Shown: in pieces, positions 10,808-34,103 of the stretch
How the letters are laid out: each line of letters begins with the position of its first letter
Position numbering within the stretch: position 1 is the stretch's first letter
Origin: a virus
Lineage: Duplodnaviria > Caudoviricetes
Direction: 5' to 3' (one strand)
IMG/VR virus record: IMGVR_UViG_3300042465_005116
Location: 32,001-96,000 of that record
Length of the DNA: 64,000 nt
Position numbers and translations under genes: made by a program
The notes under the pieces: model-generated
Told to the model about the DNA's origin: nothing
The model's input: only the letters and a program-made list of their open reading frames with translations
Databases searched by the model: none

Positions 10808-10927
10808 TTAGTGATTTTTATAAACGAATGGGTCTCTTTTACGGAGTTCTTCTAAACGTTTTTTATATTGTTTTTTTAATTTACGTTGTTTGAACCAATC
10901 TGTTATTTTTTTAATAAGCTTTTTCAT
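10808..10927 (-). CDS. Small basic hypothetical protein, 39 aa (below ORF-track cutoff)
   Basis: Manual translation MKKLIKKITDWFKQRKLKKQYKKRLEELRKRDPFVYKNH*; fills the gap and overlaps the upstream gene end. Confidence 0.6.
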   Translation of the reverse strand: MKKLIKKITDWFKQRKLKKQYKKRLEELRKRDPFVYKNH

Positions 10928-12320
10928 TAATAGTTTTTTTTAAGTTAATTATAAATTCACTTTCAATTTCATCTTTATTATTTGCGTATTCAAACAATAA
11001 ATTTCTATTATAAATAAGTATTTCAAAAATTGATTTATACCACTCATTTAATTCTTCAAAAGATAATGAATTTAATCTCATAATTTCGGCATATATGGAT
11101 TCCATACGTTCTGCATCATCTTTTATATTATCATACTCTTCATTTATAAATGGAGAAAATGTTTTAAATCCTAATTTTTTTAATTCAACAAGTGCACCTG
11201 ACTTATTAACCATTATAAATGGTTGTAAGTGTCCAATTGGTTTCCATGTCTTTTCGGAAAGATATAATCCGGTTTCATAAAAATTAGTTTCTGATAAAAT
11301 ATGAATATATGAATTTAAATAAGGTTCTTTATTTTCAAAATTAAATCCCCAAACTGATTCTATATCGTCATAATCAATTGTTTGTTTTTTTAGTTTAATT
11401 ATATTTTGAAATTCTTTATATGCACTTAATGCTAAATTACTAGTGTGTAAATGATGTGAAAAAAATGAAAGATTATTTTCTCTTTCAAACATATCAATAT
11501 CAAATGAAACTAAATTTTCTTTTATAAAATCAATACCTAATAATGAAAGTAATGTAATACGTTGTGGTCTTAATCGTCTATTCATAAATAAAAATTTATG
11601 TTTTCTAATAGAAAAATTAATATCACTTTCTTTTACAATAGTACTTGTATTATTAACGTGTTCCCAAAAATTATCCTTTACTCCATTAAAAATTTGTTGC
11701 ATTTCTAATGATTTCATTCTTAATGACCATCCCCAATAAATTACTTTCATTTTATCAGTAATATTATTTTCTAAACAAATTTTATTGTGCAGTTCCTCAA
11801 TATCAACACTAGAAATTGTGAATATAACTTTATTAGCGGGAATTTCATATTTTTTAAACAATTCGTATAAATACACTATTAAATGCTCTTCAAATACACC
11901 TTCAGTTGAAAAATTAATATGTAAATAAAAATTAGGTGTATTTTTTATTTCTGTTAATGCATGGGTTGATATAAAATCTATAAAATTCCATTCTGAAAAT
12001 TGAGTTTGTTTTCCTAAAAATTGTGAAAAACTTCCAAATGGTTCTACTAAATATACAAAACTTTTATTACTTTTTATTCTAATATCATAATACTCATTGA
12101 AGGATAATTTAGTATATAAGTTTGTATTTAAATTTAAATTTGCATTATAAACGGGTGGTTGTAAATAATTTTTAAAAAAATGTTCACTAACTGAACTATT
12201 TACTTCCCCACCTTCTTCAAAAAATTTGTAAGAATAAAAATAATTAAACGCGTTTGGAATCCAACCAGATGGGCCAAAGAAATCATAAACTGCGTGAAAA
12301 TTATCAATCGTATTATGCAT
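10911..12320 (-). CDS. Putative glycosyltransferase-like protein (paralog 1 of 3, SET-x-TEK-QPF-LGFKTF family)
   Basis: KFLFMNRRLRPQR and SETNFY..LSEKTWKPIGHLQPFIM..LGFKTF..EYD shared with 15543..16733 and 21505..22941; TEK motif reminiscent of GT10. Confidence 0.45.
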   Translation of the reverse strand: MHNTIDNFHAVYDFFGPSGWIPNAFNYFYSYKFFEEGGEVNSSVSEHFFKNYLQPPVYNANLNLNTNLYTKLSFNEYYDIRIKSNKSFVYLVEPFGSFSQFLGKQTQFSEWNFIDFISTHALTEIKNTPNFYLHINFSTEGVFEEHLIVYLYELFKKYEIPANKVIFTISSVDIEELHNKICLENNITDKMKVIYWGWSLRMKSLEMQQIFNGVKDNFWEHVNNTSTIVKESDINFSIRKHKFLFMNRRLRPQRITLLSLLGIDFIKENLVSFDIDMFERENNLSFFSHHLHTSNLALSAYKEFQNIIKLKKQTIDYDDIESVWGFNFENKEPYLNSYIHILSETNFYETGLYLSEKTWKPIGHLQPFIMVNKSGALVELKKLGFKTFSPFINEEYDNIKDDAERMESIYAEIMRLNSLSFEELNEWYKSIFEILIYNRNLLFEYANNKDEIESEFIINLKKTINEKAY

Positions 12321-12858
12321 AGTATAATTCAGGGTATTCTGCTAATACATGAATACCAATATTTTCGGTTGCGTATTTATATGATAATTCAACGTCTTGC
12401 CAAGTCTTTAAATCGTGAAATTCTATATTAGGACACATTGATTTAAATTCATCTATATAATTTCCTTTATGTTGATGACCAGGGTCTAATGGTTTATCAG
12501 AACCCTTACCTACTCTAATTAAAATATGAGGATTCCATTGACCATTTGACATTTTCTTAATTTTATCTAAATGATTTACCAATTGATTTGATGCACAAAT
12601 TAAAAAATCCCAACGAGGATAAAATGTAACAACTTTATGACCAGCCATAGCTAATCCTAAACTCATACCTAATTGAGTCTCTTCCATTACTGGAGTTTCT
12701 ATCATTTTTTCTTTTGGTAATCCCTCAATTGTTTTTGACATTGGATTTCCATAATAAACTATTTGTTGACCAATAAATATAGTTGATTCATCTTGCATAA
12801 TAGTTTTCATAGCAGTTGTCAATGCATCAACATATGGTGTAAATTGTGGTGTACTCAT
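12313..12858 (-). CDS. TPP-dependent enzyme, E1-beta/transketolase pyrimidine-binding domain (truncated, no C-terminal domain)
   Basis: ETPVMEETQLGMSLGLAMAG, DFLICASNQLVNHLDK, IRVGKG..GHQH. Confidence 0.85.
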   Translation of the reverse strand: MSTPQFTPYVDALTTAMKTIMQDESTIFIGQQIVYYGNPMSKTIEGLPKEKMIETPVMEETQLGMSLGLAMAGHKVVTFYPRWDFLICASNQLVNHLDKIKKMSNGQWNPHILIRVGKGSDKPLDPGHQHKGNYIDEFKSMCPNIEFHDLKTWQDVELSYKYATENIGIHVLAEYPELYYA

Positions 12859-12866
12859 TTTTTAAT

Positions 12867-13592
12867 TTAATTTGGTTGCCAATTATCTTTTTTTAATTTT
12901 TTAATTATTGATTCTGCGACACATTTATGTCCTTTTAGATTAAGATGTATATCATTTTTTTGTAATCCTTGTGATACAAAATCAGATGCTATTGTTACAT
13001 TGTATTCATCTCTATGTAGAAAGTATTCAAATGAATTTTTTGTATCACCATCTATTTCTATATCAACATGTCTATCTTTAAAATATTTTTGATATAATGG
13101 ATGATTTGGAAATTCTTCATACCAACTAAGTGTTACAACTTTAACACCCTCCGATTCCCATTTAGTAATTTCATTATTTACAAATTCAATTTGCTGTTCT
13201 ATTGACATTACATCACCAGTCAACCAACCTTCCTTTGTACGAATTTTATTTACATAATCTCTATATTGTGATGTAAATTGATATATTATTAATCCCATTT
13301 TTGATATTGGTAGATTAACTGTTTCCTGTAAATAACCATTTACATAATCTTCTATATTTCTTACATTTGAACCACCATTTCCACTATTAGCAATATCCCA
13401 CATTTTGTATTCATTTGCTACGATTCTTAAAAATCTATTTTCATCTTTAAACTTAATGTGGTCTTCAGTTAGGGTGTAATCAAATCGATGATATTCTTTT
13501 AACGCTGGTAAATCTGGTAGATTACTATAAAAATATAATCCCTCACCCCACGTGAACGAACAACCGATACCCAATACACCCTTTGTATTCAT
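12867..13592 (-). CDS. SGNH/GDSL-like hydrolase (possible O-acyl transferase/esterase)
   Basis: Block I GCSFTWGEG, block II GNGGSN, block V DIHLNLKGH. Confidence 0.68.
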   Translation of the reverse strand: MNTKGVLGIGCSFTWGEGLYFYSNLPDLPALKEYHRFDYTLTEDHIKFKDENRFLRIVANEYKMWDIANSGNGGSNVRNIEDYVNGYLQETVNLPISKMGLIIYQFTSQYRDYVNKIRTKEGWLTGDVMSIEQQIEFVNNEITKWESEGVKVVTLSWYEEFPNHPLYQKYFKDRHVDIEIDGDTKNSFEYFLHRDEYNVTIASDFVSQGLQKNDIHLNLKGHKCVAESIIKKLKKDNWQPN

Positions 13593-14584
13593 TATGGTTT
13601 TGAATTTGGATTATATAAATGTTTATTTGCTTTATACCACTCAATGGTTTCTTTAAGAGCTTCTTTTAGATTTCTCTTTGGTTTCCATCCTAAATCATTA
13701 ATCTTTTTAGAAGATAATAATCGGATAGGAATCATTGGTGCCTTATTATTTACAAATTCAATTGGGTTAGTATTACCATCTAATTCTTTAATGGTTGCAA
13801 GTGTTTCATTTACTGTAAATCCTTCACCATAACATACATTAAAAATATCGTATGTATCATTATTCTCTGCTACAAAGATAAACCCATCTGCCATATCTTC
13901 AACGTGTAGTAAATCTCGTACTTCCGTTCCATCACCCCAAACTGGTATTGGATTTAAACCATCTGCTACTTTACGAATGTTTGCCGGAGTAACGTGACAC
14001 TTTTCAAAATCAAACTTATCATTTGGGCCGAATGCGTTTGAAGGTCTAACAATTAAACATTGCATTGGTTCGTGAATTTGGTTAGAAAAGAAATCACATA
14101 ACATTTCGCCATATCTTTTCATACCACCAACTGCTTTGTAAACTGGTAACATAGGAGTTGCGTGAATATTCATATCCTCAGTACAAAATTCAGTACCCAT
14201 ATCTGGATACGTTGTGTTTGATGAAATAAATAAAAATTTACGAACTTTGTTTTTCCAACTTTGCTCTAATAAATTTACATTCATCTCTACATTTGGAGTA
14301 ACGTGTAATAGTGGATTAAATTTAGTATCCAATGCGTTTGATGTGTTTGCTGCACAATGGAATACTACATCAACATCTTTACTGATTAACTGACAAAACT
14401 CTGCAGTTTGTAAATCACCTTTGATATGTTCTATTTCCGATGTTCCTTCAAAATCGTTTCTCAAATCTCTACTGAAAGAGGTTGAGCGAAGGTTTCGATA
14501 ACCCTTCTCATATAATAATCTTAATAAATGTGAACCTATAAATCCACTTGCACCCGTAACTAAAACTTTGTCTGTTTTTTTCAT
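13592..14584 (-). CDS. NAD-dependent epimerase/reductase (GDP-L-fucose synthase-like extended SDR)
   Basis: VLVTGASGFIG, VFHCAA, RPSNAFGP, VWGDGTEVRDLLHVED. Confidence 0.9.
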   Translation of the reverse strand: MKKTDKVLVTGASGFIGSHLLRLLYEKGYRNLRSTSFSRDLRNDFEGTSEIEHIKGDLQTAEFCQLISKDVDVVFHCAANTSNALDTKFNPLLHVTPNVEMNVNLLEQSWKNKVRKFLFISSNTTYPDMGTEFCTEDMNIHATPMLPVYKAVGGMKRYGEMLCDFFSNQIHEPMQCLIVRPSNAFGPNDKFDFEKCHVTPANIRKVADGLNPIPVWGDGTEVRDLLHVEDMADGFIFVAENNDTYDIFNVCYGEGFTVNETLATIKELDGNTNPIEFVNNKAPMIPIRLLSSKKINDLGWKPKRNLKEALKETIEWYKANKHLYNPNSKP

Positions 14585-14587
14585 AAC

Positions 14588-15553
14588 TTATTTTTTGTAT
14601 TCATTTAAATAATAATCAATTGTATGTCTTAATCCTGTCTTTAAGGATATTTTTTGTTTAATTCCAAATGATTCTGCTCTTTCAGTGCTCATTAATCTTT
14701 TCTCATCACCATTTGGTTTTGTTGGGTCCCAGTTTATTTCAACTTTTTCACCATACATCTCTTCGTATATTTCTACAAGAGTTTCTGCAAGTTGTTTAAT
14801 TGTTACACCTGTTCCACTACCTAAATTTATTGGTTGTGTTAATTTTTGTTCGTATGCCTGAATAATTCCATCAGCAACATCTCCTGCATAGATAAAATCT
14901 CTAATTGGAGAACCATCTCCCCAACATACTAATGGATGTTCTTTTTCACCAAATAAACGTTTGATTAGGGATGCAATGACGGTAGATTCTGGACTAAAGT
15001 TATCGTGTCTACCATAAATGTTTGCCGGTCTTACAATTGATACTTTATTCCAATCGTATGATACTGAATATACTTCTGCTTGAAGTTCTCCAAGTCTCTT
15101 AGCCCAACCTGCGTATTTATCCTTTTCTGATGGGAACGTTTTCCAAACATCATCTTCATAAAATACTTCCGCCGGTTGATATACTCCAACTGTCGATGTG
15201 TAAACATACCATTCTACATTTTCTAAACGTGCAGCTTCCATCATATTGGTATTAAACTGCAACATTGGTACGAAATAATCTGCGGGTTGTTCGGCTGCTC
15301 TTTTTGGAGAACCCTTTACGCCTGCAATGTGGAAAATTATATCCTGCCCTTCAACTACTCTTTTACAATTTTTGAATTCTCTCAAATCAGCTTTAATAAA
15401 CTGATAGTTATCTACATTGTATTTTTCTAATTGATTTTCGGGAGTATTAATATCCACTGCGGTTACAAATGCTCCTCTTTGAATACATTTGTCAACCATA
15501 TAATTACCAACTAAGCCGTTGGCACCTGTTATCAAAACCTTTTTACCATTCAT
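14588..15553 (-). CDS. NAD-dependent epimerase/reductase (GDP-sugar epimerase-like extended SDR)
   Basis: VLITGANGLVG, IFHIAG, RPANIYG, WGDGSPIRDFIYAGD, INLGSG. Confidence 0.9.
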   Translation of the reverse strand: MNGKKVLITGANGLVGNYMVDKCIQRGAFVTAVDINTPENQLEKYNVDNYQFIKADLREFKNCKRVVEGQDIIFHIAGVKGSPKRAAEQPADYFVPMLQFNTNMMEAARLENVEWYVYTSTVGVYQPAEVFYEDDVWKTFPSEKDKYAGWAKRLGELQAEVYSVSYDWNKVSIVRPANIYGRHDNFSPESTVIASLIKRLFGEKEHPLVCWGDGSPIRDFIYAGDVADGIIQAYEQKLTQPINLGSGTGVTIKQLAETLVEIYEEMYGEKVEINWDPTKPNGDEKRLMSTERAESFGIKQKISLKTGLRHTIDYYLNEYKK

Positions 15554-16733
15554 TTTCTATTGAATTTAAAATTTTACTAAATTCATCTACTTCCCAAAAG
15601 GTTTGTAGATGTTTTTTATTATATATACATATATCTAAAACTGATTTATAGTTTTTTTCACACTCCTCTAATGACCACTCACTAATTTGGGTTATTAAAT
15701 CAAATATTTTTATTAATCGGTCTTCATTATCAATAATTGAATCATATTTTTCATCCCAAATAGAATCGAATGTTTTGAATCCTAATTCTTTTAATTTTTT
15801 TAAATAATTTGGCGATGATAAAACTATAAATGGTTGTAAACACATTATTGGTTTTAATATTTTTTCCGTAAAAAATATTTGACCATCAGTAAAACACGTT
15901 TCTGTTACAATATGAAAATATGAATCTAAATAATGTTGTTTAAAAAAAGTGTTTCCAACATGGAATCCTTGAATTGATTTTAATCTATTTTGGGTATCCA
16001 ACTCCATTGGTATCTTTGATGTTACCGATTCCTTATATTTTTCTAAATATTTTAATTTTTCAAAATTATTTTCATGCAAATTCATTAATAATGAAAACAA
16101 TGATTTTTTATATAAATTTTCTTTTTCAAAAAATAATGATAAATAGTATCTATGAGGGCGTTGTGAATTTCTATTTAAACATAAAAAATGTTTATTTCGA
16201 TGTGTAATATTACGCACTTCTTCAATGGTCGGTATATCTGATATATAATTTAAATCGTTTAATTCATTTGGATGGTAATTACACATCACAATAAAATGTA
16301 GAGTTGTAAATATTTTAAAATTAGTATTTGTATCTAAAAAATTTTGATTTGAATCCAATAAAATTAAATGAGTTTCATCTAATTCAAATCTATTCAATTC
16401 TTTTATTAAATTATCAAAAAAATCAGATACTATTTCTGTTGCCTCTGCAATTGAGGCCAATAAAATTTTAGTTTTGTTTTGTTTTATTGTTTCAATAAAT
16501 TCTATTGGTAAGGTATCTAATAATGTTTTACCATTTTTATCTTTTCTATAAAAATCTCGTAATGATTCTCTACATTCTAATAAAAATATATTTTTGGTAG
16601 ATGTTGTTTTGTAATTAAAACTTTTATCAAAATTTGGATTATTTATAATATAGTTATACATGCCGGATTGATGAAATAATTCACTTCCATTTGATTCATC
16701 ATTACCAAATACAAAATTTAACGTATTACTCAT
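15543..16733 (-). CDS. Putative glycosyltransferase-like protein (paralog 2 of 3)
   Basis: HFLCLNRNSQRPHR; VTETCF..FFTEKILKPIMCLQPFIV..LGFKTF..EKYD. Confidence 0.45.
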   Translation of the reverse strand: MSNTLNFVFGNDESNGSELFHQSGMYNYIINNPNFDKSFNYKTTSTKNIFLLECRESLRDFYRKDKNGKTLLDTLPIEFIETIKQNKTKILLASIAEATEIVSDFFDNLIKELNRFELDETHLILLDSNQNFLDTNTNFKIFTTLHFIVMCNYHPNELNDLNYISDIPTIEEVRNITHRNKHFLCLNRNSQRPHRYYLSLFFEKENLYKKSLFSLLMNLHENNFEKLKYLEKYKESVTSKIPMELDTQNRLKSIQGFHVGNTFFKQHYLDSYFHIVTETCFTDGQIFFTEKILKPIMCLQPFIVLSSPNYLKKLKELGFKTFDSIWDEKYDSIIDNEDRLIKIFDLITQISEWSLEECEKNYKSVLDICIYNKKHLQTFWEVDEFSKILNSIENEW

Positions 16734-17734
16734 TATTTTCTAATTATTTTTTTTATAGAATTTCTAACAAATTTATTTTCATGTTTAAAACTATCAAATA
16801 AAGATTCGTTTTGTATATATCTCTTTTGACACATTTTATCAAACATAGTATCACCTAATAATATTTGTTGATGTGATATTACTAAGTCTGAAATATTATC
16901 TTTGATATATTGCTTTATTCCATCTACTATTTTTTGTTTATTTTCAAAATCAGATTCAGTTATTTCCCAATCACTATTTACAAATTTACCATCTATTAAA
17001 TCAATATATGTCCCAACTTTATCCACAAAAACAGATTCAAAAAAGATTATATTATCTTTAAATTTTGATTCGTAAAATGGATATAATCCAATTGCATCTT
17101 TTATAGGTAAATTACCTTTATATGTAAAATACTTGCCTCTGAATTTATAACCATAAATTTTTTCTAAATAGTATTGAGTAGTTCCTTGATATCCACTATC
17201 TACCATTAAAATATTTTGTGCCGAACCAATTGTTGTATCAATATACTCTTTATATTCAATTTGAAGTTTTTTTGATTTTGTTATAATTAATTCAACCCAA
17301 TCACTTAAATCTGGCAATCCCTTTGTTGTATCAATCCATTGTTTTGGAACGTTTATTTTAATACCAAATCTATCAAATAATAAATCATTTATATCACCTT
17401 CATATCTGTGTAACTCAAACGATTTATATATTTCAATTTCAGTTGTAAACGATATCATTGATGCTAATTTACGAGAAGTTTTAAAATACACACTATTTGG
17501 CAATTTGTATTTATCTTTATAGGTTTCCCATATATTTTTTAAAAAATATCCTTCTCTGGAATTAAATAGAATTAAATCTGCTCCATCTAAATTATCAATT
17601 AACCATTTAAAATAATTGAATACCAATGGGCCAAAGAATATATATCCTAAATCAAATACTGATTTTGGATTTTTAGTATGTTCTTTATCTAAAAAATTAT
17701 AATCCATAAACTTTGAAACATGATATTCCAACAC
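16733..17734 (-). CDS. Protein resembling the C-terminal region of HAD-associated proteins of polysaccharide loci
   Basis: FNSREGYFL and MVDSGYQGTTQ motifs; real start may be ATG at 17707. Confidence 0.45.
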   Translation of the reverse strand: MLEYHVSKFMDYNFLDKEHTKNPKSVFDLGYIFFGPLVFNYFKWLIDNLDGADLILFNSREGYFLKNIWETYKDKYKLPNSVYFKTSRKLASMISFTTEIEIYKSFELHRYEGDINDLLFDRFGIKINVPKQWIDTTKGLPDLSDWVELIITKSKKLQIEYKEYIDTTIGSAQNILMVDSGYQGTTQYYLEKIYGYKFRGKYFTYKGNLPIKDAIGLYPFYESKFKDNIIFFESVFVDKVGTYIDLIDGKFVNSDWEITESDFENKQKIVDGIKQYIKDNISDLVISHQQILLGDTMFDKMCQKRYIQNESLFDSFKHENKFVRNSIKKIIRK

Positions 17735-19336: not shown

Positions 19337-19340
19337 ATTG

Positions 19341-28073: not shown

Positions 28074-28305
28074 CTCTTGCCGGTCTATTTACTGAACCTA
28101 CTGTTTTAGCTTTTGCAATCATATAAAATTCATTTAAATACCATTCAATCCTTTCAGACCAAACATCTACTTCTAATGCATAAACCCAGTCGTTCATATC
28201 TTCCAATGTATCAGCAATACGTTCTAATGCTTTAGTACGTCTTTCTTCCAAATTTACGGATTCGCTTTTTGCCGTTTCGTTTCCTTTAATTAATTCCTTT
28301 GCCAT
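28009..28305 (-). CDS. Small acidic hypothetical protein
   Basis: 98-aa ORF filling the gap between GT7 paralogs; 3' end overlaps the next ORF. Confidence 0.6.
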   Translation of the reverse strand: MAKELIKGNETAKSESVNLEERRTKALERIADTLEDMNDWVYALEVDVWSERIEWYLNEFYMIAKAKTVGSVNRPARDAERTEPEIETNETEGDTPTA

Positions 28306-28330: not shown

Positions 28331-29818
28331 TTAAGTTACAATTCTTAGTAATGTATACCCATCTTTCATTTCTGAATTTAAGATTGTATATTTTATATTA
28401 GATAATCCTATTTTTTTAAAATCTATTTTATCAGTTAACGCCTCATTAAAAAATATATCTGCATTTTCCTCAACATCTGGGTCATATCTATAATATTTTT
28501 GTATAATATTATCATCTCCTACGTGTATTAGTGATTTATACGTTCCATCTAATCTAGTTGGTAAAGATATCTCATCTAATAGATTTATAGTTTCATTGAA
28601 TATTGAATATTTACCTTCTACCTTTACGTGATTTCCAGCTTTACCTTTGTCTAATTTAAGTTCTGCAATACCACTAACATTATATGCGGTATCAAATCTA
28701 AAAATATTAGTTGGTATCAATCCTTCAATACTAGCAAGTTTATCCAAATATGAAATACCATCATAATATAATTTTTTAAGTTGTTCATCCGTTAATGTAT
28801 CACTAAATGTAATTATATCTGCTAATTGGATTGCTGATTGTGAATCTGAAATTTTAATACATCTATCTGAATAATTAAAGGTTTCAAATTTACCTAATTT
28901 TTTTTCTTGTACTTTTTTATTGTTCAATACAAGTTTAATTTTATTATTAGGTTTATCATAAATTAAAACTGCGTTATTCCACTTATCTTTATTGTATTCA
29001 ATACAAACATCAAAATGGTGTTCGGTATTACTCCAAATTTGTCCATTTAAATATCGACTACCAACTTCATTTTCAGATAAAAATAATCCAGTATCTGGTC
29101 CATCAAATGCAAATAAGTTTATTTTATGCATTACCTCCGATATATCTTTAAACCATAATGATATTGTAAAAGATGAATCAGTAAATCCTTGCATTAAGGA
29201 ATTCTGTGGTCCGTATAATCGAGTTTCTTTTGGTAAATCAATTCCTTTGATTGTATGGGTTTTATTAATGTTTGATATCTCAACATTTTCAATTCTATAT
29301 GGTAACACATCCCACAAATCATAATATGAATATACTTGTTGTGCATCATAATATTGTTCTAAATATACTCCTGCTTTTTCCAATCGCATTAGTAAATCTA
29401 AATCTTCAAATCCATATCCCCAATACTCATTAGAGTATCCGTTAGCCATTTCAAAATCTTCCCTATTAATTAATACAACTCCGCCAAAATATTGTGGGTA
29501 AGGTAATTTATTATTGTGTGCTTCTACGTTTGTTGCAAGGTGAGTCGGAACTGCTGGATAATTATAATCACACGAATCATTTATCGGTAACATATCAATA
29601 TCATGAAAACAAAAATATGTGTATTCTTTTGGTATTTCGTTTATTACCGCGTTACATAACTTACCATAATTAAATGGTCTATCATCTGCTTGTTCTGCTA
29701 TAAAAATAGTATAATCAATTCCTTTATTTGCAAGGAATCTATTCATGTGTGGTATAAAGACATTTAAATGTGCTTGTCTATCACGATATGGTACTATGAT
29801 TGCTAATTTATCTATCAT
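28331..29818 (-). CDS. GT7 glycosyltransferase with inserted LamG-like domain
   Basis: VPYRDR, FNYGKLCN, FHDIDMLP, YFGG, NGYSNEYWGYGFEDLDL, LamG-like insert, LIH..GLSNIKY. Confidence 0.85.
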   Translation of the reverse strand: MIDKLAIIVPYRDRQAHLNVFIPHMNRFLANKGIDYTIFIAEQADDRPFNYGKLCNAVINEIPKEYTYFCFHDIDMLPINDSCDYNYPAVPTHLATNVEAHNNKLPYPQYFGGVVLINREDFEMANGYSNEYWGYGFEDLDLLMRLEKAGVYLEQYYDAQQVYSYYDLWDVLPYRIENVEISNINKTHTIKGIDLPKETRLYGPQNSLMQGFTDSSFTISLWFKDISEVMHKINLFAFDGPDTGLFLSENEVGSRYLNGQIWSNTEHHFDVCIEYNKDKWNNAVLIYDKPNNKIKLVLNNKKVQEKKLGKFETFNYSDRCIKISDSQSAIQLADIITFSDTLTDEQLKKLYYDGISYLDKLASIEGLIPTNIFRFDTAYNVSGIAELKLDKGKAGNHVKVEGKYSIFNETINLLDEISLPTRLDGTYKSLIHVGDDNIIQKYYRYDPDVEENADIFFNEALTDKIDFKKIGLSNIKYTILNSEMKDGYTLLRIVT

Positions 29819-30669
29819 ATTTTAATTATAATTCTAGTTAATCTATCCCATTTAATGTAATCAAAATGATTATTTGTATTCATCTTTTCAAACATAAATT
29901 TATCGTTATTTATATCAATTTTAAAATCATTCCATTGAATTGCGTTATACATTAATTCATATTCAGTTGAAAACGCGTATTCTTTTTTAATATCAGCAAC
30001 CGCCTTAATTCTATCTACACAAGTACTATCCCATTTGAAATGATGTACTTGTATTAATCCTTCACCATCTCCAATTGGGTAACGTTTTGGATGAGATTCT
30101 CCCCAACTATTTGTTCCATCCTCAAACTCAGCGTAATGTTGGCCGGATGATATTTTAATAAACCCTTTCATAATACAAACCTTATTTGGACAAGCCCCAC
30201 TCATTGGATATCTAAAAAATCCAGCAAGTGGGAATTGTGTCCAAATATTTGTATGTTCATTTATCTGAGGAAACTCTCCATTTTCTCCTATCCTGTCAAT
30301 AAACCCACCTGTAACAAATTCCCAATTATTTTCTTCACAATCAGAAATTAATTCTCTAATTGGTTTTGGATAAATGTGAAACTCATCGTCATCTGAAACT
30401 ACCCACCAATCATTGGGGTGTAATAATTTTGTTTCGTTATATAATTGTGTAACATATTCCCAATTAAATTTTTCTTTTATTTCTCGTCTAACAATTTTTG
30501 CTTTAGGAAATTCTTTTACAATCTCATAAACAATATCATATGTGCTAAACTCATCCCATTCATATACAACAACATATATTTCATCAACTAAATCATTATA
30601 GTGATTTAACATATGACGTAGAGTATTTGTTCTACTTCCTGTTACTGTAACTAATCTAATTTTTTGCAT
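29815..30669 (-). CDS. GT-A fold glycosyltransferase (GT2/GT92-like)
   Basis: WWVVSDDDEF DxD motif; late QVHHFKW motif. Confidence 0.62.
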   Translation of the reverse strand: MQKIRLVTVTGSRTNTLRHMLNHYNDLVDEIYVVVYEWDEFSTYDIVYEIVKEFPKAKIVRREIKEKFNWEYVTQLYNETKLLHPNDWWVVSDDDEFHIYPKPIRELISDCEENNWEFVTGGFIDRIGENGEFPQINEHTNIWTQFPLAGFFRYPMSGACPNKVCIMKGFIKISSGQHYAEFEDGTNSWGESHPKRYPIGDGEGLIQVHHFKWDSTCVDRIKAVADIKKEYAFSTEYELMYNAIQWNDFKIDINNDKFMFEKMNTNNHFDYIKWDRLTRIIIKI

Positions 30670-31442
30670 CTCTGAATAAATGTTAACCCCGTAGAAGTTG
30701 GTTTGTTTCTTAATATCCCGTTATTAAAAAAATTAAATATTTCCCAATTGCCGGTTTCTTTTAATTCTTTTATTAATTTAGATGGGCCAGATGAAAACTC
30801 ATGAAAGTCATTTTTGGGTTTTACATCATCCGTAACAATTAATTCCTTTTCAAATGATACATCGGTATCGTGAATTGATATTATACCATAAGGTGAAAGA
30901 AGTTGTGAATATAATTCAAAATCATTTTTTACATCTTCATAGGAATGACCTGCATCTATATGTAGATAATCAATTTTAATATCTTCTTTAACAAAATAAT
31001 TATAAAATGCGTTTTCAGTAGTATCTATGATAAATCTACAAGGAAAATTAGTTCTAAAAAAAGAATTTTCAGATTCCCAATCGGTATGACCACCGATTCC
31101 ATTTGAAGCATCTACTAAAATTGTAGTACCACAATCACCCCACTCCATCATTTTATTTCCACTAAATATTTGTTGGTCGTGTAAATCAATTCTAGCTTGT
31201 GACATTAATCGCGGAATAAATCCACCACCACTCCCCAAGCATACACATGTTTTTGCTCTGAGGTATTGGATTGTTGCATAAATTAATAATCCATCCCCAA
31301 TATGTAAATCAGTAGCTCCATGTGACCATCGATATGCAACGGGTTGGTATTCAAAATATTCATCACCCTTAGTGTCTATTTTTTTAGTTCTATTATTGGT
31401 AAAAAAATCTTTTAAAATATTATAGTTGAGAATACTGCCCAT
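30651..31442 (-). CDS. Class I SAM-dependent methyltransferase (Methyltransf_24-like)
   Basis: VCLGSGGG, IDYLHIDAGHSYEDVKND, GIISIHDT. Confidence 0.82.
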   Translation of the reverse strand: MGSILNYNILKDFFTNNRTKKIDTKGDEYFEYQPVAYRWSHGATDLHIGDGLLIYATIQYLRAKTCVCLGSGGGFIPRLMSQARIDLHDQQIFSGNKMMEWGDCGTTILVDASNGIGGHTDWESENSFFRTNFPCRFIIDTTENAFYNYFVKEDIKIDYLHIDAGHSYEDVKNDFELYSQLLSPYGIISIHDTDVSFEKELIVTDDVKPKNDFHEFSSGPSKLIKELKETGNWEIFNFFNNGILRNKPTSTGLTFIQRCKKLD

Positions 31443-31566
31443 ACATTGAATAATGTGAATAAAATGCTAGAAATATGCTATTAGCTTAATAGTAATATAA
31501 GTTAATTAAGATAGTATAAGTGATAGTGTAATAGCTTAGTAGCTTATCCCCCTACCCCCTTTAGTA

Positions 31567-31574
31567 TATAAATA
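31567..31574 (-). promoter_or_regulatory. Candidate late promoter motif TATTTATA
   Basis: In the 181-nt noncoding gap, 125 nt upstream of 31442. Confidence 0.45.
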
Positions 31575-31623
31575 TATAAAAATATACCAAACGATAAAAA
31601 AACTGAAAAATAAATATTTGGAA

Positions 31624-32661
31624 TTATCCTAAAATTGCTGTACGGACTTTATCAATCCATACGTCTTTATTATCAAATTTTATCATATATTCTTTAAGAT
31701 TTTTGATGTTTGCAACCCTCTCTTCATGTGAATCTTTGAGGATTTGTTTAACACATTCATCAAATTCATTTTTGGTTGAAACCCTATATTTGTATTCAAC
31801 CTCCGGTGCCCAATCTTTATTTATTATTGGTAATTTACCATAATCTACTGCTTGAAATATTGAATATCCAAATGGTTCTTTAAAATACGCTGCGTGAAAT
31901 ATACCAAAATTTTTCAACATAAAAAAATGATGATGATTAACATCCCATTGAAAAACTTCCATTCCTTTTAATGAGTAGGTACTACTATCTTTAAGATTTT
32001 GTAAATCAAACTGATTTGTTAGAATATATCCTTTATGGTCGTTTAACCAATGTACACATTTTCTTGATTCAATACGAGAAGCAAATCCAATTTTACCATT
32101 ATCAACATGAGTAGTGAGCGGTAAGTTATTTTTAAACTCATAAAAATTTGGAACGTTATATGTGTAGTTTGGATGTTCATCAATCATAGTTGTGGTATTA
32201 TTACCTACCCAAATTCTACGATTAAATGTTGCTAAATACTCATCATAAAAATCTGAATCAACTTGAGTATTATATTGTAACCTTTTTAGTTCCGGAATAG
32301 CAGAAATTGCGGCATCCATTTCTCTAGCATATGCATGAACAAAGACAGTTTTAAATTTATCTTCAAAATGCCAAATGTGCGGTCTTAAATGATAATGTGG
32401 ATGTAATACATGAATTTCTTCACACTCATCTAACCACGTTCTAGTCTTTTCAGGGTCATCGTAGTGAAAATGATGAACCAATCCCTTCGGTAAGTATTTT
32501 GATTCGAATGAAGCGGGTCTCTTGGAGTCAATAAGTAATCTCCAATCCCTTTTGACAGGTAGTGTTGGCCAAACTAATTCTAAAAAATAATTAGTCCATA
32601 TATCGGCCCCACCCATAACAGTATTACCACATCCAGTTGTAACTAAAACCTTTATACTCAT
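31624..32661 (-). CDS. Probable GT-B (GT4-like) glycosyltransferase
   Basis: N-terminal GGADIW loop; C-terminal KEPFGYSIFQAVDYGKLPII resembling the GT4 ExFG..EA motif. Confidence 0.6.
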   Translation of the reverse strand: MSIKVLVTTGCGNTVMGGADIWTNYFLELVWPTLPVKRDWRLLIDSKRPASFESKYLPKGLVHHFHYDDPEKTRTWLDECEEIHVLHPHYHLRPHIWHFEDKFKTVFVHAYAREMDAAISAIPELKRLQYNTQVDSDFYDEYLATFNRRIWVGNNTTTMIDEHPNYTYNVPNFYEFKNNLPLTTHVDNGKIGFASRIESRKCVHWLNDHKGYILTNQFDLQNLKDSSTYSLKGMEVFQWDVNHHHFFMLKNFGIFHAAYFKEPFGYSIFQAVDYGKLPIINKDWAPEVEYKYRVSTKNEFDECVKQILKDSHEERVANIKNLKEYMIKFDNKDVWIDKVRTAILG

Positions 32662-32667: not shown

Positions 32668-32675
32668 TATAAATA
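32668..32675 (-). promoter_or_regulatory. Candidate late promoter motif TATTTATA
   Basis: Intergenic, 7 nt upstream of ATG at 32661. Confidence 0.4.
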
Positions 32676-32690
32676 TATAAAAATTAAATT

Positions 32691-33242
32691 TTAAACAAAC
32701 GATTTTTCTCTAACCCACACAATTGCAATCCACTTTGTACCACTAATAACTGGCAATCCTGCATGTAAACTTTCAAAATCTAAACTACCATCTATTTTTA
32801 GATTACTCCACATTAACATACGACCAGTTTTTGGTGTTACTTTTATTTTTTTAGTAGGAAATTCGGTTTCACCCCCTTCAAATTCATCGTTTAAATAAAA
32901 TAAACAAGATACCACCCTCTGACCACCTGATTTCATAGTAGTATCGTAATAATCAGTATTTGGATGGAAAAAATCATGATGTGTTTTATATTCACCACCA
33001 ACGTTATATTTTACAATATGTATTTGTTCTTGATTTTCAATTGGAAGTCCTGATTTACTTGAAATTATTTTTTTTATTTTTGTTGTTAATTCTGTTTTTG
33101 AATGAATCCACGTATTTTCAGCAACCCTATAATTTTCAATTGGAGTTCCTAATGTAGAAGCACTTATCATATTTGCAGAACCCATTTCAATTAGTTCTTT
33201 ACATTCTGCTTCAGATATTTCATAATCAATTATTGCTATCAT
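32691..33242 (-). CDS. Prolyl 4-hydroxylase-like 2OG-Fe(II) oxygenase
   Basis: EQIHIVKYNVG, HHD (HxD), QRVVSCLFYLND, GGETEFP, LHAGLPV..GTKW (distal His and 2OG-binding Lys). Confidence 0.92.
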   Translation of the reverse strand: MIAIIDYEISEAECKELIEMGSANMISASTLGTPIENYRVAENTWIHSKTELTTKIKKIISSKSGLPIENQEQIHIVKYNVGGEYKTHHDFFHPNTDYYDTTMKSGGQRVVSCLFYLNDEFEGGETEFPTKKIKVTPKTGRMLMWSNLKIDGSLDFESLHAGLPVISGTKWIAIVWVREKSFV

Positions 33243-33245
33243 AAC

Positions 33246-34103
33246 TTATTTTTTACAAGTTGTACATTCTTTATAAACTTCATTTACCCATTCTAAAGTA
33301 GTTCTTTCAGTTCCACCATAATCTTTTAAACCAGTAACAAAATCCATATTTGGATTGAATTTACTCCAATTACATAATTCTCTATAAGAACTATTATAAT
33401 TTGGAATATATTTATGCCAAATTATATTTTTTCTAATTGCAAATACATCATAACCACTTTTAAATAGTAAAAGGGAATATATTTCTTGTTCTTTAGTTGG
33501 GTTGTAATATTCGTTTACTTTTAATATATTTACAATTTCACCACTACCAAATAAGTTACCTCCTGATATATTCATCACTTTTTCATAACCATCAATTGGG
33601 TGTCTCATACAATGTGGGGGAATAAATTCAGGTGTCCACGTCGGTGCATTAGATGTATATATTGTGGCAACGTTTCGTTTACTATATACATCATATGTTT
33701 CATTAAATTCAAAAATCTGTGGAAATACACTAATAACTCCCTTTGATGGTATTTCACTTAATTGATTAATATATTCATCATCCCACCCTATCAAAAATCT
33801 AGAATGAGAATCTACACATAAAAAATAATCTTCATTATTATATAAATTTTCCATTATTAAATTCCTAGCCCATCCACATCCTTGTGCATCAGAAGCTAGT
33901 ATTTGCATAAATTTTACATTTAAATAAAATAGATGGTTATTAATTAAATCTGTTATTCTTTTTTGTTCTACCTCAGTATCTTGCAAACACACTCCAATAA
34001 ATACATTATTTGGATTATTCGCTTTATTAAAACAATCTATTATAGTGTTAACAACATCAAAATCTTTATATGAAGCTATACTTACAAATATCGTTTTATT
34101 CAT
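33246..34103 (-). CDS. GT60-like (Skp1-hydroxyproline GlcNAc transferase Gnt1 family) glycosyltransferase
   Basis: TIFVSIASYKD, FIGVCLQ, AQGCGWAR, EDYFLCVDSHSRFLIGWD (DSH motif), later EQ..S..LF..GYD..IWH. Confidence 0.8.
   Translation of the reverse strand: MNKTIFVSIASYKDFDVVNTIIDCFNKANNPNNVFIGVCLQDTEVEQKRITDLINNHLFYLNVKFMQILASDAQGCGWARNLIMENLYNNEDYFLCVDSHSRFLIGWDDEYINQLSEIPSKGVISVFPQIFEFNETYDVYSKRNVATIYTSNAPTWTPEFIPPHCMRHPIDGYEKVMNISGGNLFGSGEIVNILKVNEYYNPTKEQEIYSLLLFKSGYDVFAIRKNIIWHKYIPNYNSSYRELCNWSKFNPNMDFVTGLKDYGGTERTTLEWVNEVYKECTTCKK

What the first reader, a model, noticed from the sequence alone, without database searches (positions are those of the whole stretch)
10808..34103. ~23 kb glycan-building island wedged between tail fibre and head genes
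Seen: about 25 contiguous, often overlapping genes with at least six recognisable glycosyltransferases (3x GT7, GT-A, GT-B, GT60-like), three further GT-like paralogs, RmlC, three SDRs, a TPP enzyme pair, methyltransferase, SGNH, phosphatase and two radical SAM enzymes. The island is co-oriented downstream of the tail fibre gene and carries late-type motifs rather than host-type promoters. Inference: late-expressed machinery for a complex glycan on virion proteins (shielding, stability or receptor mimicry), comparable in scope to giant-virus glycosylation loci.
Basis: partly seen in the sequence, partly recalled or inferred. Interest (0 to 1): 0.8.

Follow-up and report, generated by a model that had tools for sequence, protein, structure and literature searches.

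The report
Phage glycan-building island beside tail fibre
An uncultured lake-water T4-like phage carries 24 back-to-back genes for sugar tailoring and sugar transfer directly after its tail-fibre gene, and comparison with about 80 related phages suggests that at least part of this machinery sugar-coats a phage-made mucin-like protein, not DNA or the host surface.

Summary
Window 10911-34103 has 24 co-oriented minus-strand ORFs, and 14 of 24 junctions overlap. None has a membrane segment. They lie between an S74-type tail-fibre gene and the terminase/portal module.

I count nine glycosyltransferases:
- three GT7 enzymes with LamG domains
- one GT60-like enzyme
- one GT4-like GT-B (fold-confirmed)
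- three GT-B paralogs (fold-confirmed)
- one weak GT-A

Other products are a prolyl 4-hydroxylase, a free LamG protein, two radical SAM enzymes, a methyltransferase, three SDRs, an RmlC-fold epimerase closest to Campylobacter GDP-heptose epimerases, a split TPP E1 alpha/beta pair and a HAD phosphatase. The SGNH call rests on a motif only.

The island has three modules:
- A: a variable hydroxyproline cassette with its Pro-rich substrate gene (34113-35732, just outside the given coordinates).
- B: a core found after the tail fibre in 52 of 61 informative relatives.
- C: a variable sugar-nucleotide block.

P4H-type oxygenases occur only next to Pro-rich linker proteins. Poly-Thr versions lack them.

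A complete 287-kb relative shows no hydroxymethyl-pyrimidine route and no Und-P machinery. A protein target is favoured, but virion location and late timing remain inferred.

GT-rich islands near tail fibres are published for pelagi- and cyanomyophages. This scan also noted similar islands on other DNA (e1-5341921 and the HPAT/poly-Thr findings).

The parts
35732..41302 (-). Long tail-fibre gene (context, upstream of the island), 1856 aa with a C-terminal Peptidase_S74 chaperone domain
   Evidence: Matches PHROG tail fibre families and PF13884. A tail-fibre homolog lies upstream of the GT-B gene in 61 of 61 related loci with at least 5 kb of upstream sequence.
34113..35732 (-). Probable acceptor protein (539 aa, outside the given coordinates). 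It has a conserved N-terminal ~50 aa, a (PPTPA)9 tract and three more Pro-rich linkers between Cys-containing modules, and a C-terminal Hint-like domain from Cys381.
   Evidence: Translation. Its start overlaps the tail-fibre stop. Weak hits to Hint families. Homologs sharing the N-terminal domain lie at the same position in relatives, with Pro-rich, Pro/Thr-rich or poly-Thr linkers.
33246..34103 (-). GT60-like (Gnt1-type) polypeptide GlcNAc-transferase
   Evidence: PF11397 at E 3.5e-36, 125.8 bits against a cut-off of 21. Found only in loci that also have a P4H and Pro-rich linker proteins.
32691..33242 (-). Prolyl 4-hydroxylase (2OG-Fe(II) oxygenase, collagen P4H type)
   Evidence: PF13640 at E 8e-18. 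Full-length match to the P4Hs of B. anthracis, Chlamydomonas, human C-P4H alpha-2 and PBCV-1 (E 4e-28 to 1e-15), with aligned H.D, H and K positions.
32668..32676 (-). Promoter-like motif ATATTTATA before the GT-B gene
   Evidence: Present upstream of the GT-B gene in 15 of 79 relatives.
31624..32661 (-). GT-B fold glycosyltransferase, GT4-like, and the first gene of conserved module B
   Evidence: No profile hit. The AF2 model (pLDDT 78) matches PimA, BshA and tll1591 at probability 1.0 and TM 0.6. T4 AGT and BGT rank only 26 and 38. Atlas neighbours are GT4/GT1. There are 241 relatives in IMG/VR.
31567..31575 (-). Promoter-like motif ATATTTATA in the 181-nt gap before the methyltransferase gene
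   Evidence: Present within 120 nt upstream of the MTase gene in 27 of 64 relatives.
30651..31442 (-). Class I SAM methyltransferase (Methyltransf_24), inferred sugar O-methyltransferase
   Evidence: PF13578 at E 3.5e-10. Conserved at 58-98% in module B of relatives.
29815..30669 (-). Probable GT-A (GT2-like) glycosyltransferase
   Evidence: Glyco_tranf_2_4 at E 3.7e-4, below cut-off. Invariant SDDDE in six homologs. No PDB sequence match.
28331..29818 (-). GT7-LamG enzyme 3 (EDLD variant of the EDDD motif)
   Evidence: Glyco_transf_7N and 7C plus a weak Laminin_G_3 hit. Sequence shown.
28009..28305 (-). Conserved 98-aa acidic protein of unknown role between GT7 genes. It overlaps the annotated start of the next gene by 65 nt.
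   Evidence: Conserved at 54-100% in 9 loci. Translation.
26610..28073 (-). GT7-LamG enzyme 2
   Evidence: Pfam GT7N, GT7C and Laminin_G_3. Human B4GalT1 at E 5e-30 with FNRgkLLNVG, DVD and GWGfEDDD aligned. A DGLNTLRY...IKVDI tail follows the LamG segment.
25171..26610 (-). GT7-LamG enzyme 1 (the most conserved, 72-96% in relatives)
   Evidence: No homolog in 50,697 GenBank phage records at E 1e-8.
23723..25138 (-). Twitch-domain radical SAM enzyme
   Evidence: NF033640 N_Twi_rSAM at 329 bits against a cut-off of 170. Conserved in module B.
22944..23726 (-). Free-standing LamG/ConA-like protein, partner of the radical SAM enzyme
   Evidence: Atlas feature and structure neighbours are Laminin_G_3 proteins and the LamG part of GT7-LamG enzymes (TM 0.68-0.77), plus a 931-aa radical SAM fusion.
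21505..22941 (-). GT-B paralog (478 aa)
   Evidence: Shares a ~210-aa C-terminal domain with 10911 and 15543. Belongs to the family folded.
20537..21508 (-). Extended SDR acting on NDP-sugars (epimerase, dehydratase or reductase; subtype unresolved)
   Evidence: PF01370 at E 1e-32. All NCBIfam hits are below cut-off.
19969..20553 (-). RmlC-fold 3,5-epimerase, closest to GDP-4-keto-heptose 3,5-/3-epimerases
   Evidence: PF00908 at 137.8 bits. Entries named GDP-D-glycero-4-keto-D-lyxo-heptose 3,5-epimerase score E 8e-48, against E 3.5e-26 or weaker for the next group, all deposited as dTDP RmlC. Some entries in the top group are themselves deposited as TDP-4-keto-rhamnose 3,5-epimerase.
19341..19979 (-). 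Truncated TPP enzyme half, PDH E1 alpha-like (PP domain)
   Evidence: PF00676 at E 8e-13 and TIGR03182 at E 2.7e-23.
18131..19336 (-). Radical SAM enzyme with a ~150-aa N-terminal extension
   Evidence: PF04055 at E 6e-12. Generic rSAM/SPASM hits.
17697..18134 (-). HAD-family phosphatase (PNKP/acid-phosphatase-B type)
   Evidence: PF25109 at E 6e-18.
16733..17734 (-). 333-aa protein of unknown function
   Evidence: No hit in Pfam, NCBIfam, PHROGs or PDB. 50% identical in G001.
15543..16733 (-). GT-B paralog (396 aa), the one that was folded
   Evidence: AF2 pLDDT 94. Foldseek matches OtsA, WaaG and the chlorovirus NY2A GT (3oy2) at probability 1.0. 132 hypothetical homologs, one fused to a DegT aminotransferase.
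14588..15553 (-). Extended SDR, GDP-L-fucose-synthase-like (below cut-off)
13592..14584 (-). Extended SDR, GDP-L-fucose-synthase/GalE-like (below cut-off)
12867..13592 (-). 241-aa protein with an SGNH-like N-terminal motif only
   Evidence: N-terminus GIGCSFTWGEG. No profile hit. Weak GDSL hits occur in other small proteins of relatives.
12313..12858 (-). Truncated TPP enzyme half, PDH E1 beta-like (PYR domain)
   Evidence: Transket_pyr at E 1e-4, below cut-off. NF006667 at E 1e-13.
10911..12320 (-). GT-B paralog (469 aa), the last gene of the island
   Evidence: 77% identical in G001.

Best explanation
The stretch is a real, three-module glycosylation island of an uncultured freshwater T4-like jumbo myovirus, probably with a Bacteroidota host. 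All of its enzymes are soluble, so they should work in the infected cell's cytoplasm.

Module C (10911-22941) is inferred to take host nucleotide sugars, most likely GDP-linked 4-keto sugars. It would re-shape them by epimerisation, reduction, a possible TPP-dependent two-carbon branch and radical SAM chemistry. Three GT-B paralogs would then transfer the products.

Module B (22944-32661) holds a GT4-like GT-B, a methyltransferase, a GT-A-like enzyme, three GT7 enzymes that each carry a LamG domain, and a twitch radical SAM enzyme with its own LamG partner. It is inferred to build and edit an oligosaccharide. The LamG domains would read the acceptor, much as the lectin domain of polypeptide GalNAc-transferases does.

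Module A (32691-34103, plus the substrate gene 34113-35732) is inferred to hydroxylate prolines in the (PPTPA)n linkers of a modular protein translated together with the tail fibre. A GT60 enzyme would then start an O-glycan on Hyp or Thr.

The product is most likely a mucin- or extensin-like phage glycoprotein associated with the tail fibre. The glycan would differ from phage to phage.

Shown here: gene content, protein folds, modular architecture, synteny, and co-variation of enzymes with linker type.

Inferred: the acceptor of modules B and C, virion location, the sugar identities, and late timing.
For: - No protein has a TM-like segment.
- Synteny: the whole island is conserved at 50-93% aa identity in a complete 287-kb relative. 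Module B follows the tail fibre in 52 of 61 informative loci, and a tail fibre lies upstream in 61 of 61.
- L011 has the 'empty' site: tail fibre, Pro-rich proteins, GT60, GT2, P4H, then directly the polyprotein, terminase and portal.
- Co-variation: every related locus with Pro-rich linkers carries a P4H-type oxygenase next to it, in at least six different gene arrangements. These include the Hyp-specific families GT60 and HPAT (PF23452, 26-42 bits over a cut-off of 23.9). Two poly-Thr arrangements lack P4H, and loci without the linker protein never have P4H.
- GT60 enzymes transfer GlcNAc to Hyp (Gnt1) or to Thr (T. cruzi) (PMC6939170). B4GalT-type GT7 enzymes extend GlcNAc (established knowledge).
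- PDH E1 alpha/beta pairs add two-carbon branches to NDP-deoxysugars (PMC4802897).
- The complete relative has only a canonical ThyA (PFNIASY Asn). It has no Tet_JBP, C5 DNA methylase, AGT, Bac_transf, Wzx-type flippase or NTP_transferase.
- The island shares the motif ATATTTATA with the portal and prohead genes.
Against: - Module B occurs in many relatives that lack module A and the linker protein, including a relative 95-99% identical in module B (L001). Its acceptor therefore cannot be only that protein.
- No virion proteomics exist, and the N-terminal domain of the linker protein has no annotated homolog.
- Soluble GTs can also act on Und-PP-linked intermediates supplied by the host, so the absence of membrane proteins does not exclude host-surface remodelling. 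That is the published reading for similar islands (PMC7029224, PMC12801897).
- The related loci are not phylogenetically independent, so the co-variation counts overstate the evidence.
- The GT60-like gene of Xanthomonas phage XacN1 sits among replication genes.
- The GT-A and SGNH assignments are weak.
Confidence: 0.6

Rival explanations
1. Host-surface remodelling. The island would build or alter the host's O-antigen or capsule on host Und-P carriers, using the host's initiation, flipping and ligation machinery. This would block superinfection or change recognition, as proposed for pelagimyophage and cyanophage glycosyltransferase clusters. Only module A would act on a phage protein.
For: This is the published interpretation of GT/deoxysugar/radical SAM cassettes in host-recognition clusters (PMC7029224; PMC12801897). 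The epimerase is closest to Campylobacter capsule heptose enzymes. Module C is hypervariable like an O-antigen locus. Modules B and C occur without module A.
Against: The island has no membrane protein. The complete relative has no phosphoglycosyl transferase or Wzx-type flippase. Four enzymes are coupled to LamG domains, which is unusual for Und-PP-glycan assembly. The GT-B gene is linked to the tail fibre in 61 of 61 loci. The island adjoins a protein-directed Hyp cassette. The phage is lytic and T4-like, whereas classical seroconversion is a trait of temperate phages (established knowledge).
Confidence: 0.22
2. DNA hypermodification. The glycosyltransferases would decorate hydroxymethylated bases of the phage DNA with a complex glycan to evade restriction, as in T-even phages and other hmC phages.
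For: T4-like lineage. Atlas feature neighbours of the GT-B include a DNA alpha-glucosyltransferase cluster, and T4 AGT and BGT appear among the fold matches. Multi-sugar DNA glycans made by phage GTs are reported (Pyle et al. 2024, as cited in PMC12619734).
Against: The complete syntenic relative has a single thymidylate-synthase-family gene with the dUMP-specifying Asn. It has no Tet_JBP, no C5 DNA methylase and no AGT-family hit. AGT and BGT are only generic GT-B matches ranked behind GT4 enzymes. The 2OG oxygenase is of the collagen P4H type, not TET/JBP.
Confidence: 0.04
3. Not one pathway. The region could be a recombination hot-spot behind the tail fibre that collects unrelated accessory cassettes: a Hyp-glycoprotein cassette, a LamG-enzyme cassette and a sugar-nucleotide cassette. 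These would have different targets, and some might make a soluble glycoside or only shift host sugar pools.
For: The modules are gained and lost independently. Very close relatives differ in module A. Module C differs between relatives: a cytidylyltransferase, a DegT aminotransferase, a B12-radical SAM enzyme and DUF5672 appear in others.
Against: All genes are co-oriented and mostly overlapping, with few internal promoter-like motifs. The GT-B paralogs of module C are interleaved with the sugar-tailoring genes. Module order is fixed across relatives.
Confidence: 0.12

Closest known systems
Hypervariable host-recognition cluster (HRC) of aquatic T4-like myophages (pelagimyophages and cyanomyophages; Zaragoza-Solas et al. 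2020, PMC7029224; P-SSM2/S-SCSM1/S-SCSM2R 'LPS/cell-wall' gene sets, PMC12801897)
   Same: A large variable region next to the tail-fibre genes of low-GC aquatic T4-like phages. It holds many glycosyltransferases, deoxysugar enzymes (RmlC, NDP-sugar epimerases) and radical SAM cassettes, and it changes by gain and loss of cassettes. Its function is untested.
   Different: The content here is GT7-LamG enzymes, a twitch radical SAM enzyme with a LamG partner, a P4H with GT60 or HPAT, and a Pro-rich substrate gene. None of these is described in those papers. The published reading is host O-antigen modification, whereas the co-variation found here points to a phage protein acceptor.
Mycobacteriophage virion glycosylation (Che8, Corndog, Myrna; Freeman et al. 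2023, as described in PMC12619734)
   Same: Phage-encoded soluble glycosyltransferases (with a methyltransferase in some phages) modify phage structural proteins in the cytoplasm.
   Different: Those systems have 1-4 GTs, target the C-termini of capsid and tail-tube proteins, and have no prolyl hydroxylase, lectin-coupled GTs or sugar-nucleotide pathway. Here nothing has been shown experimentally.
Skp1 hydroxyproline glycosylation pathway of Dictyostelium/Toxoplasma (PhyA, Gnt1/GT60, PgtA, AgtA; PMC6939170)
   Same: A cytoplasmic P4H followed by a GT60 GlcNAc-transferase and further soluble GTs builds an oligosaccharide on hydroxyproline.
   Different: The phage P4H is closest to collagen, bacterial and algal P4Hs, not tested against PhyA. 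The acceptor is a repetitive Pro-rich linker, not a single Pro of Skp1. The extending enzymes are GT7-LamG and GT-B, not GT2/GT74/GT77. Some relatives use HPAT (GT95) instead of or beside GT60.
Giant-virus glycosylation systems (chlorovirus PBCV-1 capsid glycans with virus-encoded GTs and methyltransferase; PBCV-1 P4H acting on Pro-Ala-Pro-Lys repeats, PMC3634087; mimivirus fibril glycosylation clusters)
   Same: Virus-encoded cytoplasmic machinery for unusual, methylated sugars on virion proteins. A viral P4H is paired with Pro-rich repeat proteins. The folded paralog matches a chlorovirus NY2A GT structure (3oy2) among its top hits.
   Different: The host is bacterial and the gene set differs. 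Here the genes form one compact co-oriented block behind the tail fibre.
Polypeptide GalNAc-transferases (GT27: GT-A catalytic domain plus lectin domain) and plant Hyp O-arabinosyltransferases (HPAT, GT95)
   Same: A GT-A catalytic unit is coupled to a carbohydrate-binding beta-sandwich, which suits dense glycosylation of repetitive Pro/Thr-rich tracts. An HPAT-family domain is present in relatives next to the P4H.
   Different: The phage catalytic domain is GT7, not GT27. The lectin is LamG/ConA-like, not ricin-type, and appears to be inserted before the GT7 C-terminal segment. The window itself has no HPAT.

Membership tests
CAZy GT7 (beta-1,4-Gal/GalNAc-transferase family) | Glyco_transf_7N and Glyco_transf_7C domains above the Pfam cut-offs | tested here: met
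   All three proteins score 62-83 bits (7N) and 66-72 bits (7C) against cut-offs of 27 and 23.
CAZy GT7 (beta-1,4-Gal/GalNAc-transferase family) | DxD metal/donor motif and WGxEDDD catalytic motif aligned to B4GalT1 | tested here: met
   The alignment to 6fwu (E 5e-30) shows FHDVDMLP against FSDVDLIP and GWGFEDDD against GWGGEDDD. Enzyme 3 has EDLD.
CAZy GT7 (beta-1,4-Gal/GalNAc-transferase family) | Contiguous catalytic domain with the C-terminal His/flexible-loop segment | tested here: inconclusive
   The HMMER alignment stops at the EDDD motif. About 160-230 aa of LamG follow. A DGLNTLRY...IKVDI tail then resembles, from my recollection, the B4GalT1 C-terminus. It was not aligned by a tool.
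CAZy GT60 (Gnt1-type polypeptide alpha-GlcNAc-transferase) | Match to PF11397 above cut-off | tested here: met
   125.8 bits against a cut-off of 21. The homolog in L019 scores 73 bits.
CAZy GT60 (Gnt1-type polypeptide alpha-GlcNAc-transferase) | Acts on hydroxyproline (or Thr) of a protein acceptor, dependent on a prolyl hydroxylase | not testable with these tools
   Only genomic association is available: GT60 always occurs with a P4H and Pro-rich linker proteins.
Collagen-type prolyl 4-hydroxylase (2OG-Fe(II) oxygenase, PF13640) | Full-length similarity to characterised P4Hs, with the H-x-D...H iron triad and the 2OG-binding Lys | tested here: met
   E 4e-28 to B. anthracis P4H over residues 2-181. 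HHD, LH and GTKW align to HYD, LH and GEKW.
RmlC (dTDP-4-dehydrorhamnose 3,5-epimerase) equivalog | Score above the TIGR01221 equivalog cut-off | tested here: not met
   119.7 bits against a cut-off of 155.75. The protein is a member of the Pfam dTDP_sugar_isom fold family. It is closest to entries named GDP-4-keto-heptose epimerases (E 8e-48), against E 3.5e-26 or weaker for the next group, all deposited as dTDP RmlC. Some entries in the top group are themselves deposited as TDP-4-keto-rhamnose 3,5-epimerase.
Und-P-dependent O-antigen/capsule locus | Initiating phosphoglycosyl transferase plus a flippase/polymerase or ABC exporter | tested here: not met
   None of the 25 proteins has a TM-like segment. 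The complete relative G001 has no Bac_transf or Polysacc_synt, and the control genomes were positive. WecA-type and Wzy families were not searched.
T-even-type DNA glucosylation system | A route to hydroxymethyl-pyrimidine DNA (dCMP/dUMP hydroxymethylase, or a C5-methylase plus TET) | tested here: not met
   G001 has one PF00303 gene, with the ThyA-type Asn. It has no Tet_JBP or DNA_methylase. The Tet_JBP and AGT searches had no positive control.
Host-recognition-cluster type hypervariable island of aquatic T4-like myophages | Lies next to tail-fibre genes, contains GTs, sugar enzymes and radical SAM genes, and differs between close relatives by cassette gain and loss | tested here: met
   The definition is taken from PMC7029224.
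Mycobacteriophage-type virion glycosylation | Glycans demonstrated on capsid or tail proteins | not testable with these tools
   There is no isolate and no proteomic data.

The most novel reading that the evidence does not exclude
A lineage of lake phages would run a eukaryote-like protein O-glycosylation line in the bacterial cytoplasm. A collagen-type prolyl hydroxylase and Hyp/Thr-specific transferases (GT60, plant-type HPAT) would start glycans on the linkers of a tail-fibre-associated 'beads-on-a-string' protein. GT7 enzymes with built-in LamG lectins, LamG-guided radical SAM enzymes and GT-B paralogs would extend them with phage-made rare sugars. The result would be a mucin- or extensin-like, rapidly diversifying glycan coat on the host-recognition apparatus.
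Probability: 0.45. Interest if true: 0.85.

Novelty: new variant of a known kind. Interest (0 to 1): 0.68.

Why it matters
Glycosyltransferase-rich islands next to the tail fibres of aquatic T4-like phages have been known for twenty years and are routinely labelled 'LPS genes' or host-surface modifiers, without any test. This island offers a handle on the question. Its entry cassette pairs a prolyl hydroxylase and Hyp-specific transferases with a linker protein whose composition (Pro-rich or poly-Thr) predicts which enzymes are present. That points to phage proteins as the acceptors and gives a substrate that can be expressed and analysed by mass spectrometry.

If confirmed, it would extend virion glycosylation from mycobacteriophages to abundant freshwater phages of Gram-negative hosts. 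It would also show hydroxyproline O-glycosylation outside eukaryotes and add lectin-inserted GT7 enzymes to the enzymology of dense protein glycosylation. The ecological relevance would be to host range, particle stability and grazing or immune recognition.

Tried and rejected
- T4 late promoter: TATAAATA is not enriched (26 against 22 expected). On the coding strand only one copy is intergenic. The sigma-70 scan found fewer sites than shuffles gave.
- Nucleotide search of the island against GenBank phages gave no match. GT7-LamG protein against cultured phages gave no match. The linker-protein N-terminus against cultured phages gave no match. In the large protein collection it found only hypothetical proteins.
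- PDB sequence searches found nothing useful for the GT60-like enzyme, the GT-B profile, the GT-A profile, the 333-aa protein or the methyltransferase. The twitch radical SAM enzyme gave only marginal MoaA hits.
- NCBIfam and PHROGs gave nothing for the three paralogs, the 333-aa, 260-aa and 345-aa proteins, or the 241-aa 'SGNH' protein.
- Rfam found no family in the window. The 181-nt leader before the methyltransferase gene folds no better than shuffled sequence (z 0.86).
- DNA-modification reading: rejected as the leading idea after the G001 searches.
- XacN1 GT60-like gene: its context is replication genes and a carbamoyltransferase, so it gives no support for a protein target there.
- Metatranscriptomes: four freshwater RNA libraries hold short contigs (150-570 nt, 90-100% identity) scattered over the island and the tail fibre. 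Contigs cannot show strand, level or timing, and DNA carry-over is possible, so I do not count this as evidence of late expression. Parts without cover mean nothing.
- The Freeman et al. 2023 paper could not be read.
- 'Moraphage' paper (PMC12619734): it describes large freshwater Bacteroidota phages with core GTs. I could not establish that this phage belongs to that lineage.

Full report
**What the window is**

All long ORFs lie on the minus strand, and GC is about 0.30. The portal (1698-3428, Portal_T4) and terminase (3502-5085) are T4-like. The portal is only 52% identical to Microcystis phage Mel-JY01 and 46% identical to Flavobacterium phage immuto. No genome is held for the window.

The island DNA occurs in at least 16 lake-water metagenome runs. 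A 287,455-bp IMG/VR contig rated 100% complete (G001) is a syntenic relative.

**The observation**

From 10911 to 34103 there are 24 ORFs. Fourteen of the 24 junctions overlap, and there is one 181-nt gap. None of the 25 proteins, counting the neighbour at 34113-35732, has a hydrophobic segment long enough to span a membrane.

*Profile searches*
- Three GT7N+GT7C+Laminin_G_3 proteins.
- A PF11397 (GT60) protein.
- A 2OG-FeII_Oxy_3 protein.
- Methyltransf_24.
- A weak Glyco_tranf_2_4 hit.
- Two radical SAM proteins, one a full-length NF033640 twitch-domain member.
- dTDP_sugar_isom.
- Three extended SDRs.
- PDH E1 alpha-like and beta-like halves.
- A HAD phosphatase.

*Enzymes checked in more detail*
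- GT7 enzyme 2 aligns to human B4GalT1 at E 5e-30, with the DxD and WGxEDDD motifs in place.
- The oxygenase aligns end to end with B. anthracis, Chlamydomonas, human collagen and PBCV-1 prolyl 4-hydroxylases.
- The epimerase is much closer to Campylobacter entries named GDP-4-keto-heptose 3,5-/3-epimerases (E 8e-48) than to the next group, all deposited as dTDP RmlC (E 3.5e-26 or weaker), though some top-group entries are themselves deposited as TDP-4-keto-rhamnose epimerase. Two SDRs score best against GDP-L-fucose synthase. GDP-linked 4-keto sugars are therefore the likeliest substrates; this is inference.

*Unannotated proteins*
- The proteins at 10911, 15543 and 21505 are paralogs. An AF2 model of 15543-16733 (47-sequence alignment, pLDDT 94) has a GT-B fold.
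- The protein at 31624-32661 (pLDDT 78) is GT-B/GT4-like. The T4 DNA glucosyltransferases appear only as generic, lower-ranked matches.
- The protein at 22944-23726 is a free LamG/ConA-like protein. Its Atlas model superposes on the LamG part of GT7-LamG proteins, and elsewhere this domain is fused to a radical SAM enzyme.
- The 333-aa protein, the 98-aa protein and the 241-aa 'SGNH' protein stay unassigned.

The island therefore encodes nine glycosyltransferase-type proteins. Eight are well supported and one is weak.

**Architecture from relatives**

Protein-guided scans of IMG/VR gave 12 and then 79 related loci. Three modules emerge.

*Module B* runs from the GT-B gene to the twitch radical SAM enzyme with its LamG partner (22944-32661). 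At least 5 of 6 marker genes are present in 52 of 61 loci that have 6 kb or more downstream. A tail-fibre homolog lies upstream on the same strand in 61 of 61 loci that have 5 kb or more upstream.

*Module C* (10911-22941) is conserved gene for gene only in G001 (50-93% aa identity). Other relatives carry different tailoring genes there: a small cytidylyltransferase, a second twitch radical SAM enzyme, DUF5672, a DegT aminotransferase and a B12-radical SAM enzyme.

*Module A* is the most variable.
- The window has the 539-aa linker protein, GT60 and P4H.
- A relative 95-99% identical in module B (L001) has none of these, and also has a swapped distal tail fibre.
- L011 has module A but lacks modules B and C. 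It runs straight on into the polyprotein, terminase and portal, which marks the island as an insertion at this site.

**The acceptor question**

The gene after the tail fibre (34113-35732) starts on the tail-fibre stop codon. It encodes a conserved ~50-aa N-terminus, a (PPTPA)9 tract and further Pro-rich linkers between Cys-containing modules, and a Hint-like C-terminal domain.

An HMM of the N-terminus finds homologs at the same position in relatives. Their linker composition predicts the neighbouring enzymes:
- Pro-rich or Pro/Thr-rich linkers are always accompanied by a P4H-type oxygenase, in at least six arrangements:
  - with GT60;
  - with GT60, HPAT and SGNH;
  - with an HPAT-SGNH fusion and a second 2OG domain;
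  - with DUF7796 and DUF6065;
  - with DUF6065 alone;
  - flanked by two 2OG oxygenases.
- The two poly-Thr arrangements have no P4H. They carry a different 311-aa protein instead, fused in one case to a radical SAM/SPASM enzyme.
- Loci without the linker protein never have P4H.

HPAT (PF23452) is the plant hydroxyproline O-arabinosyltransferase family. GT60 contains the Hyp-specific Gnt1 and a Thr-specific trypanosome enzyme (PMC6939170). A viral P4H acting on Pro-rich repeats is known from PBCV-1 (PMC3634087).

This co-variation is the strongest evidence that module A hydroxylates and glycosylates the linker protein. The loci are related, so the counts are not independent events. The six or more distinct arrangements are the better measure.

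**Rivals**

*DNA glycosylation.* G001 has a single thymidylate-synthase-family gene with the dUMP-type Asn. It has no Tet_JBP, no C5 methylase and no AGT-family hit. The Tet_JBP and AGT searches had no positive control.

*Host-surface remodelling.* G001 lacks Bac_transf, a Wzx-type flippase and any NTP_transferase, so the phage depends on host-activated sugars. It could in principle act on host Und-PP intermediates. This rival remains open for modules B and C, because they occur without module A. It is also the published reading for comparable islands (PMC7029224, PMC12801897).

*Points against host-surface remodelling.*
- Four enzymes are coupled to LamG domains.
- The GT-B gene is invariably linked to the tail fibre.
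- The island adjoins a protein-directed cassette.

**Expression**

ATATTTATA has 12 of 13 copies on the coding strand. Eight of those lie in the 2.5% of the window that is intergenic. It precedes the portal, a prohead gene, the polyprotein and other genes, and it occurs at 32668 and 31567 inside the island. It recurs upstream of the methyltransferase gene in 27 of 64 relatives.

The Bacteroidota-type TAnnTTTG is intergenic only before the primase and the tail fibre. The island therefore shares a phage-specific signal with the head genes, but that this signal is 'late' is inference. Metatranscriptome contigs cover scattered parts of the island and the tail fibre, which is weak evidence.

**Comparison and novelty**

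The kind of feature is published: a hypervariable GT, sugar and radical SAM island beside the tail fibres of aquatic T4-like myophages. What I did not find in the literature searches or in cultured phages is this content:
- GT7 enzymes with a LamG domain;
- LamG-partnered radical SAM enzymes;
- P4H with GT60 or HPAT cassettes matched to Pro-rich substrates.

The GT7 C-terminal tail after the LamG segment (DGLNTLRY...IKVDI) resembles, from my memory, the B4GalT1 C-terminus. That fits earlier scan notes that LamG is inserted inside the catalytic domain. I did not test this with a tool.

The scan has noted similar islands and HPAT/poly-Thr pairings on other DNA.

**Verdict**

- That this is a glycan-building island is near certain.
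- A phage-protein acceptor has a probability of about 0.6.
- Virion location and late timing remain inferred.

Noticed in passing
window 34116-34592 (minus strand; residues 381-539 of the 539-aa protein): C-terminal Hint/intein-like domain (starts CFLYGTEI, ends VHN followed by R). It could cleave itself off or transfer the Pro-rich protein onto another molecule. Several Hint families give weak hits. L019-L021 carry the same domain, and L086 and L088 have Hint proteins right after the tail fibre.
   Followed up: partly
window 1671, 3483, 10785, 31567, 32668, 46916, 50049, 62295 (minus strand): The phage-specific intergenic motif ATATTTATA (often TATATTTATATA) precedes structural and island genes. 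It is not the T4 late consensus on the coding strand.
   Followed up: partly
window 41303-41537 and 45629-45734: The only intergenic copies of the Bacteroidota-type -7 motif TAnnTTTG on the coding strand lie before the tail-fibre and primase genes. This is consistent with a Bacteroidota host.
   Followed up: no
window 5811-10763: A 1650-aa protein directly downstream of the island begins with a cytidylyltransferase-like HxGH domain (PF01467, phrog_395). Its C-terminal 410 aa are conserved in L011 and G001. It is conserved where the island is absent, so it is probably not part of the island.
   Followed up: partly
window 46123-46695: A Sulfotransfer_2 (galactose-3-O-sulfotransferase-like) gene lies 5 kb upstream of the tail fibre and is conserved in G001. 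It could sulfate a glycan.
   Followed up: no
L071:5891-7897 and L003:3711-4646: Beside poly-Thr linker proteins sits an unannotated 311-aa domain, which in L071 is fused to a radical SAM/SPASM enzyme. It is a candidate Thr-directed modification enzyme, possibly the SERGT/HPAT-like family noted elsewhere in the scan.
   Followed up: no
L004:11440-11850, L006, L010 (between two GT7-LamG genes): A 136-137-aa cytidylyltransferase-like gene is inserted inside module B of some relatives. This hints at a CDP-activated substituent, such as glycerol phosphate, on their glycan.
   Followed up: no
window 28009-28305: A conserved acidic 98-aa ORF lies between GT7 genes and overlaps the annotated start of GT7 enzyme 2 by 65 nt. 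That enzyme probably starts further in. Some relatives have an extra 185-212-aa ORF here.
   Followed up: partly
L017 (Xanthomonas phage XacN1, AP018399.1 222135-223508): The only cultured-phage homologs of the GT60-like enzyme (24-27% identity) are in Xanthomonas jumbo phages. There the gene lies next to a carbamoyltransferase and replication genes.
   Followed up: partly
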